A DNA stretch of 11,859 bases from a virus (lineage: Duplodnaviria; Heunggongvirae; Uroviricota; Caudoviricetes): IMG/VR virus record IMGVR_UViG_3300044799_000708; one strand, written 5' to 3'. Below the pieces are notes generated by a model that worked only from the letters and a program-made list of their open reading frames with translations, had not been told where the DNA came from and did not search any database. Every line of letters begins with the position of its first letter. The stretch's first letter is position 1. The position numbers and the translations under genes are program-made. Positions 163 to 4,984 of this stretch are shown piece after piece.

Positions 163-612
163 ATGGAATTCAAATGGAATGGCGCAATAAAGCTGGAGAG
201 ATTTGGTAGAAAGACGATTACCCTGCCTGATTTCAGAAAATTACATTTAACAAAAGCAGGGGTAGGGGAAAAGGCTCGTTCTGTCTCTCTTCCCTTTTCT
301 ATTTCTGGGTATTTCCTATGTTCCTTTGACAGAGATAATGATATAATAAAGTTCACAGTGGGAAAGTCCACAAATAAAATGACATACAAGACAAGGAATA
401 TTGAAAAGGAAGGTAAACAAAATGGAATTACTGTTTCCTCTAATGCCATAAGGCAGTTGAACTGGCATGATGAAGTGGAAATTTACAGATACATAGTGAA
501 TAAAGACCTTTTCTTCCTATTCAGAAAAAAGGATTTGGTTATAGAATTGAGAAAACAGTTTGAAAAACCGATAGATAGAGACCATATTAAGGAAAGAGAA
601 TATGAAAAATAA
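163..612 (+). CDS. Hypothetical protein, possibly AbrB/SpoVT-like swapped-hairpin DNA-binding protein
   Basis: 149-aa ORF, first gene after P1. Segments ARSVSLPFSIS and NGITVSSNAIRQLNWHDEVEI loosely resemble the AbrB pattern G-x-I-T-I-P-x-x-I-R-x-x-L-x-x-x-x-G-D-x-V. The fold call is weak. Confidence 0.35.
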   Translation: MEFKWNGAIKLERFGRKTITLPDFRKLHLTKAGVGEKARSVSLPFSISGYFLCSFDRDNDIIKFTVGKSTNKMTYKTRNIEKEGKQNGITVSSNAIRQLNWHDEVEIYRYIVNKDLFFLFRKKDLVIELRKQFEKPIDRDHIKEREYEK

Positions 613-943
613 AATTGGAAGACCAGAAAGTTCAAGGATATGTGACATAGAAGGCTGTTCAAAAACGCATTATGCTAAAGGCTTCTGTAGAACTCATTAT
701 CTGAATTATAGATATAATAATGATGAGAAATTTAGAAAAGAGGTAAGTGAAAAAAGTAGAAAAAGAGTATCTGAACACTATCAAAAAATGATAGCGATAG
801 ACCCTGATTGGGGTGCTAAACGCCAAAGAGAATACAGAAATAAATATCCAGATAGATTTCGTTATATTATGTGTCGTTGTTATTTTCGTAAATTGACGAA
901 TGAACAAAAGAAAAATCTGATAGAGGAATGTGGTATGAAATGA
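602..943 (+). CDS. Zinc-finger protein (C-x4-C...G-x-C-x2-H-Y), no nuclease domain
   Basis: CDIEGCSKTHYAKGFCRTHY is the C3H finger often seen N-terminal to phage HNH/EndoVII nucleases. It is followed by a basic helix, and no HNH motif is present. Confidence 0.65.
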   Translation: MKNKIGRPESSRICDIEGCSKTHYAKGFCRTHYLNYRYNNDEKFRKEVSEKSRKRVSEHYQKMIAIDPDWGAKRQREYRNKYPDRFRYIMCRCYFRKLTNEQKKNLIEECGMK

Positions 944-1230
944 AAATCGATAAACAGCATTATGGTAATCTAACAAAGGATAGTATATGGGAAGAAATAA
1001 CAACAATTAGGGCAAAAATTATTTCCTTGCTACAAGATGATAAAATCAGTTCGCTAAAAACGGTAAGTGTGTTGAAGGAAATGAAAAAGAATTTTAGCAA
1101 TCATATTTTTCAAGAATTGCTGACGAGAGATGAAAAAACTAAAGATATATGGGGGAAATTTGTTTCAAAAAACTCTGATGTTATCATAAAATATTATAGA
1201 TGGAAAGAGAAAGAGGGGGTAAAATTATGA
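940..1230 (+). CDS. Hypothetical protein
   Basis: The track ORF starts at 928; the ATG at 940 overlaps the upstream stop (ATGA) and is the likelier start. Coupled to the ATPase by ATGA at 1227-1230. Confidence 0.7.
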   Translation: MKIDKQHYGNLTKDSIWEEITTIRAKIISLLQDDKISSLKTVSVLKEMKKNFSNHIFQELLTRDEKTKDIWGKFVSKNSDVIIKYYRWKEKEGVKL

Positions 1231-2327
1231 AAAGTGTAAATCATAAGCAGTTAGGGAAGCTGATAAGGGAAGCATATAAAAAGAAGAAAGCCTTATTCAT
1301 TTGGGGGGCTTGCGGAATTGGTAAGTCTGATGTTGTCAGAGACAGTGCCAAACAGATGGCAAAGGAAAAAGGTCTCATATATAATGAGGATATGACAAAA
1401 ATAAATGAGAAAACTGTCTTTTCTGTTATTGATATTCGTCTTTCACAAATGGATTTGTCAGACATAAGGGGATTGCCCAAATATGATGAGAAAACGGAGA
1501 CTACAAAATGGTATGCCCCTAACTTCTTGCCAAAGAATGGTCAGGGTCTTCTTTTCCTTGACGAGATTAACCTTGCAGTCCCGACAGTTCAGGCTACAGC
1601 CTATCAATTAATATTGAATAGGAGAATAGGCGACTATGTTCTGCCTGATGGATGGCTTGTTGTCTCGGCAGGAAACAGGCTTGAAGACCGTGCTAATGTC
1701 TTCGAGACTCCTGCACCATTGAACAACCGTTTCCTTCACATAGAATTGGCACAGCCTGATGTGGATGACTGGATAGATTGGGCTGTCGCTAACGGCATAG
1801 ACACTCGTATCTCCACATATTTGAAGTTCGAGCCAGTCCTTTACAGGTTTGATAAGAACATAAAAGACAAAGCATTCCCCACGCCAAGAACTTGGTTCTT
1901 CGCTTCTGAAATGATAAACGATAAGGACACGACAAAGGACTTGGACATGATAGAAATACTCGTAGCTTCGTGTGTTGGTGAGGCTACAGCGATGAAATTC
2001 ACTGCTTGGCTTAAGCTGACGGAGAAGATAGACATCAAGGAAATCCTTAAGAACCCTATGGAAGCGAAACTGCCAAAGGAACTTGATATGCTGTATGCAA
2101 CCATTTCAGGCATATTGGAACACTACAAGAGGGATAGGAAACTGCTCAAGCCTATCATACAGCTTGCAACAAGGCTGACCCCTGAATATGCTGTGCTGTT
2201 GCTGAAACTCATCAAAACGCACACTCCGAGATTCACACAGGAGGTCTATAACATGCCAGAATGGAAGGAAAATGCCAAAAGGCTGCAGCCATACTTTAGG
2301 AAAGAAGAAGGAGAGGGAGAAGAATGA
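1227..2327 (+). CDS. MoxR-like AAA+ ATPase (AAA_5/AAA_3-type), partner of VWA protein
   Basis: Walker A GACGIGKS (1305-1328), Walker B LLFLDEIN (D at 1560), IRLSQ...DIRGLP, SAGNR sensor, LNNRF arginine finger and FPTPRTW. Start 1227 is preferred over 1200 (ATGA overlap, GAGGGGG RBS). Confidence 0.92.
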   Translation: MKSVNHKQLGKLIREAYKKKKALFIWGACGIGKSDVVRDSAKQMAKEKGLIYNEDMTKINEKTVFSVIDIRLSQMDLSDIRGLPKYDEKTETTKWYAPNFLPKNGQGLLFLDEINLAVPTVQATAYQLILNRRIGDYVLPDGWLVVSAGNRLEDRANVFETPAPLNNRFLHIELAQPDVDDWIDWAVANGIDTRISTYLKFEPVLYRFDKNIKDKAFPTPRTWFFASEMINDKDTTKDLDMIEILVASCVGEATAMKFTAWLKLTEKIDIKEILKNPMEAKLPKELDMLYATISGILEHYKRDRKLLKPIIQLATRLTPEYAVLLLKLIKTHTPRFTQEVYNMPEWKENAKRLQPYFRKEEGEGEE

Positions 2328-2527
2328 CCAAAAAGGAAATCAGAGAATTAATTATTTTGAAGAAGCATGATGGAGAATGTCAGTCTTGGCATTCGATAAA
2401 ACAGGGCGAACTTAAAACTTGGATAAAAGATGGCAGTCTTAAAGAAGGCGATATGATAGTTTATCCGAAAACAATTAAAAGAATAGAGGTTGAACTAAAG
2501 GAGAAGATTCTTTTAAAAAAACTATAA
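2324..2527 (+). CDS. Small hypothetical protein between ATPase and VWA genes
   Basis: 67-aa ORF with ATGA overlap to the ATPase stop and a GGAG-rich RBS. Its stop abuts the RBS of the next gene. Confidence 0.7.
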   Translation: MTKKEIRELIILKKHDGECQSWHSIKQGELKTWIKDGSLKEGDMIVYPKTIKRIEVELKEKILLKKL

Positions 2528-2536
2528 GGTGAAAAT

Positions 2537-4984
2537 ATGATACCTGAAATATCACAGATGACCGCAGAAGACAGGATTAGGAAGGTCAGGATACAGTTTC
2601 TGCGTGAAAAGCCATTCTTCGCCCATTTGTCCCTTTATCTTAATCTCATAGAAAGAAAGGATTTTGACACTATGGGTGTGGATTTTGAGGGAGGTCTTAT
2701 CTATAATCCAAAATTCGTCAATAGCTTTAACTTTACGGACTTGAAGATGATAATAGCCCACGAAACTTGTTTAGTGCCAGAAACTTTTGTATGGAACAAA
2801 AAAATAAATGAAATAAAGGTTGGTGATAAGATTTTAGGAGATGATGGTAAAGAACATAAAGTTATTTTGACCAATGAAAGAAAATATGAAGGAGAATTGA
2901 TATGTATAACACCAAGAGGTTCTTTGCCTATTAAAATAACGCCAAATCATCCAGTTTTAACTACAAATGGTTTATGGAAAGGATTCCAAAAACCAAATTA
3001 TAGAAAATTAAAGAATAGAGTTGGAGAAAATAAATTTATTTTCGAAAAATTAAAATGGAAAAATGCAGATGAACTCACAGAAAATGATTGGTTGGTGATA
3101 CCTAAAATTAAACCATTAGAAAAATATGAAAATTATGTAATAAAATTCAGTTATGGTAATGTATGGTCAACTACTCTAAAAAAATCGATAAGGGAAGGAT
3201 TGAAATTAGATGAGGATATTGCATATTTTTTGGGTTTGTATACTGCTGATGGATGGGCAAACATAAAATCTAAAACTATTGGCATATGTTTACATTCTAA
3301 AAAAGATATAGAAAAAATAGAAAAAATAAAGAAAATAATAGAAAATAAAATGGGTTTCAAGGTCAACATAAAAAAAAGAACTGATTCAAATTGTTTCGAT
3401 GTCAAATTTTCCTCAAGACCATTTGTTTCGTTTTTACATGAAAATATTGGAACAAGAGCATGGAATAAGAAAATTCCAGAATTTATTATATTTAATAATG
3501 ACGAAATTAAAAAGGCATTTCTGAAAGGGTTCATAGATGGCGATGGATATAATAATCACATAAATATTGGTTTTGCTACGACTTCAGAAAATCTTGCCCA
3601 TCAATTATTTATGCTTTCTGCGAGTTTAGGTATAATTTTTAATATGTATAAGGAAAGAAGAAATACAAAGAAAGGACTTTCTCGATTAAATAAAATTAAT
3701 AAAGAATGGACTGACATTTATATATTTTTTTCAAGATGTCATAAAATTTTTGATGTTTTGAATTTGCCTCATAAAGAAAGAACAATAAGAAAAACAACAT
3801 GGTTCAAAGAATACGAAGATTACATTCTTATAAAAATAAGAAAAATACAAAGGGAAAAATATGATGGTTTAGTTTTTAATTTGCAGACAGAAAATCAAAA
3901 TTATATATCAAATAATATTGTGGTTCATAATTGTCATCTCGCCTTTCTTCACCTGACGAGAAGGGGTAACAGGATACCTTTGCTATGGAACATCGCTGTG
4001 GATTTGGCTGTCAATAACATTCTCCATGATGATGGCTTTCACATTCCAGAAGGATTCCTTATGAACAGAAAATACAAGGACATGACTGCAGAGCAAATTT
4101 ATGATGACCTGTATAAGAATGCAAAGCATATCAAAATGAGAATTGGAGGCATATGCAAGAAATGCTCTGACGGAACGCAGGAAGTAGATTTCAACGATAC
4201 GCAGGGTAAAATGTTCGATAAGCACTCTTTTCCGAAGAGACAGGATAATGGTGCAGGTAGAAAAAACAGCAAGGGAAGCGAAAAGAATGGCAAAGAAAGC
4301 GAAAAGGATAAGGATGATGACACCAAAGGAGAGCCATTATCTGATGATGAGTTAAAAAAACTGCAGGACTTGTGGAAGAAAAGGATAGTTGAAGCCGAAA
4401 CAATCGCAAAACAGATGGGGAAATTGCCTGCAAACCTTGAGCGTATGTTTGGAAACCTTCTGGACTCAAGAATAAACTGGAAGGCTCTTCTTTATCGTTA
4501 TATTACGCAGGAGATTCCATATGACAGCACATATGCAAGACCCTCGAAGAAATCCGAGAGCGTAGGCGTTTATTTGCCCTATCAGGTCAAGGAAAACATT
4601 GAGATAATCATAGGTGTGGACAGTTCTGGAAGCATAACGCAGGAGGAATTGACCGAGTTTATGAGCGAAATGGTAGCCATAGCGAAAAGCTTTTCGAGTA
4701 TAAGAATGTCTGTCATCGTCTGTGACAGCGAAATACATGAAACCTATGAGGTTATGAATGGCTTTTCTCCGACTGACATCAAGATTAGTGGTGGTGGTGG
4801 AACTGATTTTCGACCAGTTTTCAAATGGATAGAAAAAAATAAGCCAAGTGCAAAGTTGCTTGTCTATTTCACGGATGGCTATGGCAGTTATCCTGCAAAT
4901 GAGACAGTGAAAACCCTATGGGTCTTAAAAGAGAATTATGATGTTCCTTTCGGGGAAAAGGTTATCTATAAGGGAAGTGATTGA
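2537..4984 (+). CDS. DUF2201-type putative metallopeptidase + VWA-like protein, intein-containing precursor (815 aa; about 427 aa spliced)
   Basis: The N-terminus has PFFAHL, TMGVD and YNPKF. After splicing it reads IIAHETCHLAFLHLTRRG...LWNIAVDLAVN (HExxH). Other features are a low-complexity charged linker, W...L.RY, the MIDAS motif VDSSGS (4619-4633), GGGGTDFRPVF and YFTDGYG. AGGTGA RBS. Confidence 0.9.
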   Translation: MIPEISQMTAEDRIRKVRIQFLREKPFFAHLSLYLNLIERKDFDTMGVDFEGGLIYNPKFVNSFNFTDLKMIIAHETCLVPETFVWNKKINEIKVGDKILGDDGKEHKVILTNERKYEGELICITPRGSLPIKITPNHPVLTTNGLWKGFQKPNYRKLKNRVGENKFIFEKLKWKNADELTENDWLVIPKIKPLEKYENYVIKFSYGNVWSTTLKKSIREGLKLDEDIAYFLGLYTADGWANIKSKTIGICLHSKKDIEKIEKIKKIIENKMGFKVNIKKRTDSNCFDVKFSSRPFVSFLHENIGTRAWNKKIPEFIIFNNDEIKKAFLKGFIDGDGYNNHINIGFATTSENLAHQLFMLSASLGIIFNMYKERRNTKKGLSRLNKINKEWTDIYIFFSRCHKIFDVLNLPHKERTIRKTTWFKEYEDYILIKIRKIQREKYDGLVFNLQTENQNYISNNIVVHNCHLAFLHLTRRGNRIPLLWNIAVDLAVNNILHDDGFHIPEGFLMNRKYKDMTAEQIYDDLYKNAKHIKMRIGGICKKCSDGTQEVDFNDTQGKMFDKHSFPKRQDNGAGRKNSKGSEKNGKESEKDKDDDTKGEPLSDDELKKLQDLWKKRIVEAETIAKQMGKLPANLERMFGNLLDSRINWKALLYRYITQEIPYDSTYARPSKKSESVGVYLPYQVKENIEIIIGVDSSGSITQEELTEFMSEMVAIAKSFSSIRMSVIVCDSEIHETYEVMNGFSPTDIKISGGGGTDFRPVFKWIEKNKPSAKLLVYFTDGYGSYPANETVKTLWVLKENYDVPFGEKVIYKGSD
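2768..3931 (+). mobile_element. Intein (388 aa) with LAGLIDADG homing endonuclease
   Basis: Block A CLVPETFV (Cys1), block B ITPNHP, LAGLIDADG motifs AYFLGLYTADG (3221-3253) and AFLKGFIDGDG (3515-3547), block F GLVFNLQT, and block G IVVHN followed by +1 Cys (3932-3934). More AT-rich than the exteins. Confidence 0.95.

What the first reader, a model, noticed from the sequence alone, without database searches (positions are those of the whole stretch)
2759..3937. Homing intein inserted inside the HExxH metal-binding motif of a DUF2201-type metallopeptidase
SEEN: the precursor reads IIA-H-E-T-[CLVPET...388 aa...IVVHN]-C-H-LAF. The two His ligands of HETCH are therefore 388 residues further apart until splicing, and the +1 nucleophile Cys is one of the motif's x positions. 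Both LAGLIDADG motifs keep their acidic residues. KNOWN: inteins favour conserved active-site motifs, mostly in replication and repair ATPases and terminases. INFERENCE: a metallopeptidase zinc site is an unusual host (I cannot confirm it is unreported). The placement implies this motif is under strong purifying selection, so the domain is probably catalytically important, and it makes activity strictly splicing-dependent, a possible conditional switch.
Basis: partly seen in the sequence, partly recalled or inferred. Interest (0 to 1): 0.7.

Follow-up and report, generated by a model that had tools for sequence, protein, structure and literature searches.

The report
Homing intein splitting a viral zinc motif
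A normal-looking self-splicing, self-copying protein insert (a homing intein) sits inside the zinc-binding HExxH motif of a viral peptidase-like/vWA protein. The host gene family is not listed in the intein surveys I could read, yet metagenomes show it to be an intein hotspot.

Summary
ORF 2537..4984 (815 aa) reads ...IIAHET | CLVPET...(388 aa)...IVVHN | CHLAFLHL. The insert (2768..3931) has every hallmark of a class-1 intein and carries a two-motif LAGLIDADG homing endonuclease. Removing it in silico restores HETCH, which aligns with the invariant HExxH of DUF2201_N.

The host protein is a zincin-like domain fused to a vWA/MIDAS domain. It lies downstream of an AAA+ ATPase, the pair known from phage N4 and RaK2-like jumbo phages.

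The intein has GC 26%, against 41% in the exteins. Between relatives it is far more alike than its host gene, so it spread by recent horizontal homing.

It is not unique. Public metagenomes hold dozens of intein-bearing DUF2201 proteins at 11 or more sites, all at conserved residues (p about 5e-5). Six cluster representatives use this exact site, and 20 more use the two sites two and four residues away.

Site-a inteins fall into three unrelated lineages, two of them nested among inteins of the neighbouring sites. Inteins have therefore hopped over 2-4 codons.

No paper I could search reports inteins in this family. This scan had already noted such inteins on other DNA.

The "conditional switch" idea has no support. 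Verdict: a new member of a known kind, of moderate interest.

The parts
1200..2327 (+). AAA+ ATPase partner gene (375 aa). Walker A GACGIGKS is at 1305..1328, Walker B LFLDE at 1551..1565, SAGN at 1665..1676. It holds an empty intein site PTPR|T at 1889/1890.
   Evidence: phrog_1297 'ATPase', E 8e-90. Only weak Pfam AAA hits. The relative L001 carries a 308-aa intein here, PTPR|C...HN|S.
2324..2527 (+). Small 67-aa ORF between the ATPase and the peptidase-vWA gene.
   Evidence: No family hit. A 64-aa ORF holds the same position in L001.
2537..4984 (+). Precursor gene: zincin-like DUF2201_N + intein + vWA-like DUF2201 (815 aa, P0001).
2537..2767 (+). N-extein (77 aa), ending in His75-Glu76-Thr77 (2759..2767).
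   Evidence: DUF2201_N profile positions 4-67. H and E are invariant in the family.
2768..3931 (+). Class-1 intein, 388 aa, with a nested LAGLIDADG homing endonuclease.
   Evidence: Pfam hits above their cut-offs. PDB sequence hits to PI-PkoII, V-ATPase inteins and PI-SceI. GC 0.260 against 0.409 in the exteins.
2768..2770 (+). Block A nucleophile Cys1.
   Evidence: Read from the sequence.
2939..2950 (+). Block B T-x-x-H (TPNH, intein residues 58-61).
3230..3253 (+). LAGLIDADG motif 1 (LGLYTADG).
3521..3547 (+). LAGLIDADG motif 2 (LKGFIDGDG).
3872..3931 (+). Blocks F and G (VFNLQTE...NIVVHN), with penultimate His and terminal Asn.
   Evidence: The matching stretch of PI-PkoII aligns here.
3932..4984 (+). 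C-extein (350 aa plus stop). It starts with Cys+1 (3932..3934) and the second zinc His (3935..3937). The vWA-like domain spans about 4604..4960.
   Evidence: DUF2201_N profile 69-268 and DUF2201 profile 1-119. MIDAS residues: DSSGS within 4616..4633, Thr in GGGGTDF at 4790..4810, Asp in FTDG at 4868..4885.
3986..4003 (+). WNIAVD: an empty target for a second intein (site d, between Ala at 3995..3997 and Val at 3998..4000).
   Evidence: L001 has a 371-aa intein here, WNIA|C...HN|CD. Asp is invariant in the family.

Best explanation
Residues 78-465 form a canonical class-1 intein that carries a LAGLIDADG homing endonuclease. It is a selfish mobile element lodged between the third and fourth residues of the HExxH motif of a zincin-like/vWA protein.

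That protein is the partner of the upstream AAA+ ATPase in an uncultured tailed virus. This is the N4 gp24/gp25-type pair, proposed for jumbo phages to act in virion assembly and processing.

Inferred chemistry:
1. Cys1 forms a thioester with Thr77.
2. Cys+1 attacks that thioester.
3. Asn388, helped by His387, cyclises and releases the intein.
4. An S-to-N shift joins Thr77 to Cys466, which recreates one helix reading HETCH.

Inferred mobility: the endonuclease cuts intein-less alleles in the DNA that encodes HExxH, and repair copies the intein in.

Shown here: the anatomy, the exact insertion point, conservation of the target, foreign base composition, and horizontal spread. Inferred, not shown: actual splicing, endonuclease activity and peptidase activity.
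For: - All intein blocks are present: Cys1, TPNH, VVHN and Cys+1, with Pfam scores above cut-off.
- PDB sequence matches to PI-PkoII, V-ATPase inteins and PI-SceI include both LAGLIDADG acidic residues.
- Exact excision gives the best score against the intein-free HMM.
- Intein-free homologues read HET(L/M)H at the same place. Examples are P0123 and P0265-P0276, 50-58% identical.
- GC is 0.260 (GC3 0.175) in the intein, 0.409 (GC3 about 0.45) in the exteins and 0.345 in the rest of the window.
- Window against L001, nucleotide identity: intein 99.6%, exteins 86-96%. Window against L002: intein 83.3%, exteins 64-70%, ATPase 68.6%. At protein level against L002 the intein is 82% identical and the exteins 54-60%.
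- P0004 has a closer extein (60%) but lacks this intein.
- Extein identity: DUF2201_N and DUF2201 hits. The AF2 N-domain model (pLDDT 96) matches almost only zincins: abylysin, selecase, jannalysin, BlaR1, ArdC, SPRTN and BepA, at Z 5-6.7. The C-domain matches integrin I and vWA domains.
- The ATPase-then-peptidase/vWA gene order recurs in Klebsiella phage Muenster and, by that record's notes, in N4. It is described for jumbo phages in PMC7824862.
Against: - No experiment: splicing, cleavage and proteolysis are all unobserved.
- No near-identical intein-less allele of this virus was found. The nearest empty alleles are about 57% identical, so homing into this exact sequence is not directly documented.
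- The +1 Cys replaces a Leu or Met that is usual at this position. Cys occurs there in only 4 of 231 intein-free relatives, so the spliced HETCH protein could be slightly impaired.
- The zincin fold matches have only middling Z, and one hit is a non-peptidase HExxH oxygenase domain.
Confidence: 0.85

Rival explanations
1. Conditional-splicing switch. The intein has been co-opted so that the peptidase becomes active only when metal, redox or temperature conditions allow splicing. For example, Zn2+ could be held by the split His/Glu/His ligands together with Cys1 and Cys+1, or a Cys1-Cys+1 disulfide could form.
For: Geometry only. His75 and Glu76 lie at -3 and -2, and His467 lies at +2, next to the two catalytic cysteines. 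Conditional splicing is documented for other inteins in the abstracts of PMC5790916, PMC6195587 and PMC11409957.
Against: - Distribution is patchy, and the closest extein relatives lack the intein.
- The intein is much younger than the host-gene divergence and has foreign composition.
- It keeps an apparently intact homing endonuclease.
- Unrelated inteins occupy 10 other sites in the same family.
All of this is the pattern of a parasite, not of a fixed regulator.
Confidence: 0.08
2. Decaying or non-splicing intein. The gene is effectively inactivated, and the virus does without this protein.
For: None directly. Intein-bearing genes can tolerate slow splicing, and the block F Asp is Asn here (VFNLQ).
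Against: - The 815-codon frame is intact, and all essential splicing residues and both endonuclease acids are present.
- Every residue that is invariant in the extein family is retained.
- The intein is 99.6% identical in nucleotides in L001, with no frame damage.
Confidence: 0.05
3. The host domain is not a peptidase. DUF2201_N would be a zincin-like metal-binding module with another role, such as substrate capture for the AAA+/vWA chaperone or a non-hydrolytic enzyme. The intein would then interrupt a metal site but not a protease. This is compatible with the intein reading above.
For: No member has shown activity. Fold matches are only Z 5-6.7 and include the HExxH domain of an alpha-ketoglutarate oxygenase, 8s5f. 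The sequence profile hits PDB zincins only weakly, at E 0.004-0.03.
Against: H, E, H and D100 are invariant, and H83 is nearly so, in 104 homologues. Glu of HExxH is the general base in zincins, which is textbook knowledge. The hit list is almost purely peptidases. PMC7824862 also reads it as a metallopeptidase.
Confidence: 0.2

Closest known systems
Archaeal and yeast LAGLIDADG homing inteins (PI-PkoII of the Thermococcus Pol gene, V-ATPase inteins, PI-SceI)
   Same: Class-1 Hint splicing domain with Cys1, TxxH, HN and Cys+1. A nested two-motif LAGLIDADG endonuclease. Insertion at an invariant catalytic motif. Sequence matches at E 1e-11 to 1e-5.
   Different: The host is a zincin-like/vWA protein rather than a polymerase or ATPase. 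Identity to any solved intein is low (local matches only).
Allelic and neighbouring inteins in metagenomic DUF2201 proteins (P0002, P0003, P0005, P0134, P0138 at the same site; about 45 more at other sites)
   Same: Same extein family and same kind of intein. P0002 and P0003 carry the same intein lineage, 99% and 82% identical.
   Different: P0005, P0138 and P0134 occupy the same site but belong to other intein lineages, at most 34% identical to this one.
MoxR-type AAA+ / metallopeptidase-vWA pair of N4-like and group 2.2 jumbo phages (Iyer et al. 2021, PMC7824862), and the ATV MoxR-vWA tail-assembly pair
   Same: Gene order ATPase then peptidase-vWA. Families phrog_1297 and phrog_1314. HExxH plus MIDAS.
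   Different: Cultured-phage copies are under 30% identical, and none of the 631 phage records showed this intein in the gene. The ATPase here does not reach Pfam MoxR/AAA_5 thresholds.
Genes with several non-allelic intein sites (RNA polymerase subunits, PMC1635734; haloarchaeal MCM, PMC10643990)
   Same: Many insertion sites in one protein family, each at a conserved position.
   Different: Here three sites lie within six residues of one helix, and the intein tree mixes them. This runs against the usual rule that allelic inteins are each other's closest relatives (PMC1635734).

Membership tests
Class-1 intein (Hint domain) | In-frame insertion that is absent from homologues, with exteins that rejoin into a contiguous alignment | tested here: met
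   The N-extein covers profile positions 4-67 and the C-extein 69-268. The best HMM score comes from excising residues 78..465. 104 or more homologues lack the insert.
Class-1 intein (Hint domain) | Block A Cys/Ser1, block B TxxH, block G His-Asn, and a +1 Cys/Ser/Thr | tested here: met
   C78, TPNH (intein residues 58-61), H464-N465 and C466. Pfam Intein_splicing 58.6 bits against a cut-off of 35.8.
Class-1 intein (Hint domain) | Autocatalytic protein splicing | not testable with these tools
   Needs expression and mass spectrometry.
LAGLIDADG homing endonuclease | Two LAGLIDADG helices, each with its catalytic acidic residue | tested here: met
   LGLYTADG and LKGFIDGDG align with the Glu and Asp of PI-PkoII. 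LAGLIDADG_3 56.8 bits against 22.5, with 2 stretches.
LAGLIDADG homing endonuclease | Site-specific cleavage of the intein-less allele, and homing | tested here: inconclusive
   Indirect only. The intein is far more conserved than its exteins between genomes.
DUF2201_N (PF13203), zincin-like putative metallopeptidase | HExxH on the active-site helix, and a Pfam match | tested here: met
   109 bits against a cut-off of 23.2. H, E and H are invariant. In the AF2 model, helix 65-80 carries HExxH, preceded by a three-stranded sheet.
DUF2201_N (PF13203), zincin-like putative metallopeptidase | Zincin fold | tested here: inconclusive
   The top Foldseek and VIA hits are almost all zincins, but E is 1e-3 at best and Z is 5-6.7, in the range the tool calls middling.
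DUF2201_N (PF13203), zincin-like putative metallopeptidase | Zinc-dependent peptidase activity | not testable with these tools
   I found no characterised member.
vWA / MIDAS domain (DUF2201, PF09967) | DxSxS...T...D MIDAS residues and the vWA fold | tested here: met
   DSSGS, Thr of GGGGTDF and Asp of FTDG are present and invariant in the family. Pfam 92.8 bits against 26.4. The homologue model hits integrin I and vWA domains at probability 1.0.
MoxR AAA+ / vWA chaperone pair | An adjacent MoxR-class AAA+ ATPase | tested here: inconclusive
   The adjacent ATPase has Walker A, Walker B and sensor motifs and matches phrog_1297 at E 8e-90. No Pfam MoxR/AAA_5 hit reached threshold, and PDB gave only weak Clp hits.

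The most novel reading that the evidence does not exclude
The zinc-binding helix of this family is a place where inteins repeatedly move over very short distances. Three insertion points (x|C-HExxH, HEx|C-H, HExxH|C) lie within six residues. The six inteins at the HEx|C-H site form three lineages.

Two of those lineages are nested, over their Hint-N, endonuclease and Hint-C parts alike, among inteins of the neighbouring sites. That implies repeated ectopic re-insertion 2-4 codons away, an event generally held to be very rare.

The family, with 11 or more sites in about 400 residues plus two or more sites in the partner ATPase, would be a natural system for studying how inteins colonise new sites.
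Probability: 0.65. Interest if true: 0.6.

Novelty: new member of a known kind. Interest (0 to 1): 0.45.

Why it matters
It adds a zincin-like/vWA protein, and its AAA+ partner, to the hosts of inteins. Those hosts are dominated by replication, repair and packaging ATPases.

The intein sites independently mark the functionally critical residues of an uncharacterised, widespread phage protein family: HExxH, the WNxAxD Asp and the MIDAS Ser, Thr and Asp. That supports the view that both the metal site and the MIDAS site matter.

The mixing of intein lineages among three adjacent sites gives a rare, testable example of short-range ectopic intein movement.

Practically, the family supplies many new Cys1/Cys+1 inteins with defined junctions. 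It also exposes a propagated mis-annotation, 'HNH endonuclease', for phrog_1314.

Tried and rejected
- No whole genome is held for this window.
- The search for related loci with the C-extein in viral contigs found nothing. The 104-row alignment was too diverse to use. A 12-row alignment gave only two viral loci and none in genome contigs. The ESM Atlas neighbours are mostly Uroviricota.
- hmmalign of the full precursors aligned only locally and mis-placed the inserts. I replaced it with scoring of all candidate excisions.
- Foldseek on the whole homologue model returned only vWA hits, so I folded the N-domain alone.
- The supplement of the Novikova survey is not held.
- The 'longer' homologue search returned only 15 proteins because of word-index limits. 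The census of sites is therefore a lower bound and is biased towards relatives of this protein.
- I considered and rejected two other readings of the insert. A free-standing endonuclease gene insertion would break the frame. A bacterial intein-like or Hedgehog Hint domain would lack the HN/Cys+1 junction and the LAGLIDADG domain.
Full report
**1. The observation**

The window holds one long ORF at 2537..4984 on the + strand, giving 815 aa (P0001). It reads ...KMIIAHET | CLVPETFVW... ...NNIVVHN | CHLAFLHLTRRG.... His75-Glu76-Thr77 are at 2759..2767. The insert Cys78..Asn465 is 2768..3931 (388 aa). Cys466 and His467 are at 3932..3937.

Pfam places Intein_splicing (58.6 bits, cut-off 35.8), LAGLIDADG_3 (56.8 against 22.5) and Hom_end in the insert. 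The N-extein matches DUF2201_N profile positions 4-67. The C-extein matches positions 69-268 and then DUF2201 (vWA-like).

I built an HMM from 104 intein-free homologues and scored every plausible excision. Removing exactly residues 78..465 scores best, 484.9 bits against 466.4. The spliced product is 427 aa and reads HETCH.

**2. The intein**

All splicing blocks are present:
- Cys1.
- TPNH (block B, 2939..2950).
- VFNLQTE...NIVVHN (blocks F and G).
- Cys+1.

The two LAGLIDADG helices (LGLYTADG at 3230..3253, LKGFIDGDG at 3521..3547) keep their acids. These align with the Glu and Asp of PI-PkoII. Other sequence matches in the PDB are V-ATPase inteins and PI-SceI.

The intein is compositionally foreign. 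Its GC is 0.260 (GC3 0.175), against 0.409 (GC3 about 0.45) in the exteins and 0.345 in the rest of the window.

**3. The host protein and its context**

The alignment of 104 intein-free homologues (A1) has these invariant residues, numbered as in P0123: H74, E75, H78, D100, the MIDAS residues D285, S287, S289, T346 and D370, and a few others. All are present in the window's exteins.

An AF2 model of the closest intein-free homologue (P0123, pLDDT 87) matches integrin I and vWA domains in its C-terminal half. The N-domain folded alone (pLDDT 96) has a three-stranded sheet followed by the HExxH helix. It matches almost exclusively zincins: abylysin, selecase, jannalysin, BlaR1, ArdC, SPRTN, Wss1, BepA and M1 aminopeptidases. 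The scores are only middling (Foldseek E 1e-3 at best, VIA Z 5-6.7). One hit is a non-peptidase HExxH oxygenase domain. A sequence profile hits selecase and M48 peptidases weakly. 'Zincin-like' is therefore well supported, while 'peptidase' remains an inference.

Upstream lies an AAA+ ATPase (1200..2327; phrog_1297, E 8e-90). The same ATPase-then-peptidase/vWA order occurs in Klebsiella phage Muenster, whose record notes homology to two adjacent N4 proteins. Iyer et al. 2021 (PMC7824862) describe the pair in group 2.2 jumbo phages and propose a role in virion assembly with proteolytic processing.

Neighbouring genes (YopX, a weak terminase-like hit) and the Atlas neighbours (mostly Uroviricota) indicate an uncultured tailed virus. 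I did not determine its host.

**4. Evidence of mobility**

Two related contigs carry the same intein at the same site.

| Comparison | Intein | Exteins | Other |
|---|---|---|---|
| Window vs L001 (JGI 3300032797), nucleotide identity | 99.6% | N 96.5%, C 86-89% | |
| Window vs L002 (ERR3772643), nucleotide identity | 83.3% | 64-70% | ATPase 68.6% |
| Window vs L002, protein identity | 82% | 54-60% | |

P0004's extein is closer to ours (60%), yet it reads HETMH with no intein there. The nearest fully intein-free proteins (P0265-P0268, 55-58%) read HETLH.

An element that is much younger than its host gene and patchily distributed is the signature of homing. No near-identical empty allele of this virus was found.

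L001 also has a second intein at WNIA|C-D and one in the ATPase at PTPR|. Both sites are empty in the window (3997/3998 and 1889/1890). L003 has yet another ATPase site plus a site-g intein.

**5. Not unique: an intein hotspot**

The word-index search and the exhaustive representative search returned about 50 intein-bearing DUF2201 proteins. Mapping them gave at least 11 sites.

| Site | Junction | Representatives |
|---|---|---|
| b | x\|C-HExxH | 5 |
| a (ours) | HEx\|C-H | 6 |
| c | HExxH\|C | 14, plus 1 shifted by one residue |
| d | WNxA\|C-D | about 15 |
| h | EEIY\|C | 1 |
| g | AETL\|S-KQMG | 2, plus L003 |
| j | TY\|S-RPSK | 1 fragment |
| e | MIDAS DxSG\|S | 5 |
| i | GGG\|T | 1 |
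| f | FTDG\|C | 1 |

The sites fall in significantly conserved columns (permutation p 7e-5; p 3e-5 with a, b and c collapsed into one site).

In 231 intein-free relatives, Cys already occupies the +1 position in 22% at site b and 33% at site c, but only 1.7% at site a. This fits site a being the less common of the three.

**6. An unexpected point**

A maximum-likelihood tree of 46 inteins groups most sites coherently (d, e, g). The six site-a inteins, however, form three lineages:
- Ours (P0001, P0002, P0003).
- P0005 and P0138, inside a starred clade of site-c inteins. They are 52-56% identical to those, against about 34% to ours.
- P0134, sister to site-b P0129 at 50% identity.

Forcing the six into one clade costs 340 log-likelihood units (AU p 4e-46). 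I named the group after seeing the tree, but the effect is very large. The relationships hold separately for the Hint-N, endonuclease and Hint-C parts, so whole inteins moved, not just the nuclease module. The junctions are unambiguous (HET|C...HN|CH against HEVLH|C...HN|CA).

This runs against the usual rule that allelic inteins are each other's closest kin and that ectopic moves are very rare (PMC1635734). I cannot say how the 2-4-codon shifts arise.

**7. Literature and earlier notes**

No paper in the held library combines 'intein' with DUF2201, 'metal-dependent peptidase' or a relevant HExxH context. The prokaryotic survey (PMC4760082), the mycobacteriophage survey (PMC5050341) and a 2025 actinophage preprint list no zincin, vWA or MoxR host. 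InBase could not be consulted.

This scan had already noted inteins in DUF2201 genes on other DNA (e1-831309, e1-1859171) and reached the same 'real but not unique' verdict.

**8. Verdict**

This is a genuine, apparently intact homing intein inside the HExxH of a viral zincin-like/vWA protein, best read as a selfish element. The 'conditional switch' has no support beyond geometry.

It is a new member of a known kind. It gains some extra interest from the density of sites in this two-gene module and from the short-range site hopping.

Noticed in passing
window 1889/1890 and 3997/3998; L001:1254-3305 and L001:3509-7090: The close relative L001 (92-99% nt identity) carries two more inteins: one in the ATPase (PTPR|C...HN|S) and one at WNIA|C-D of the peptidase-vWA gene. 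The window has the empty sites, which makes a natural filled/empty pair for homing tests.
   Followed up: partly
L003:1-2175 and L003:2825-5011: A third relative (IMG/VR 3300044799_000682) has an ATPase intein at another site (GDY|C...SGN|C, just before the SAGN sensor motif). It also has a site-g intein in the peptidase-vWA gene. Both genes of the module are therefore multi-site intein targets.
   Followed up: partly
phrog_1314; GenBank phage records H2, H4, H6, H15, H19-H23: The PHROG family of this extein is labelled 'HNH endonuclease', and many phage records carry that label on intein-free DUF2201 genes. This looks like a propagated mis-annotation.
   Followed up: no
P0141, P0004 (metagenomic homologues): Intein-free alleles carry Cys exactly at the +1 position: HETCH in P0141 and WNIACD in P0004. 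These could be footprints of lost inteins or ready-made landing sites.
   Followed up: no
window 1500-2250: The ATPase gene body has GC 0.42-0.47, against about 0.30-0.35 in the flanking small genes. The exteins of the next gene are also GC-richer than the window average. The two-gene module may have a different history from its surroundings.
   Followed up: no
window 4845-4938 vs L001:6924-7609: L001 has an extra 191-aa gene between the peptidase-vWA gene and the next conserved gene. The window lacks it. Gene order further downstream also differs (window 7179-7987 matches L001 8439-9196).
   Followed up: no
window 602-943: A small ORF has a weak match to an HNH-endonuclease PHROG (phrog_5351, E 9e-7, first 45 residues only).
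   Followed up: no
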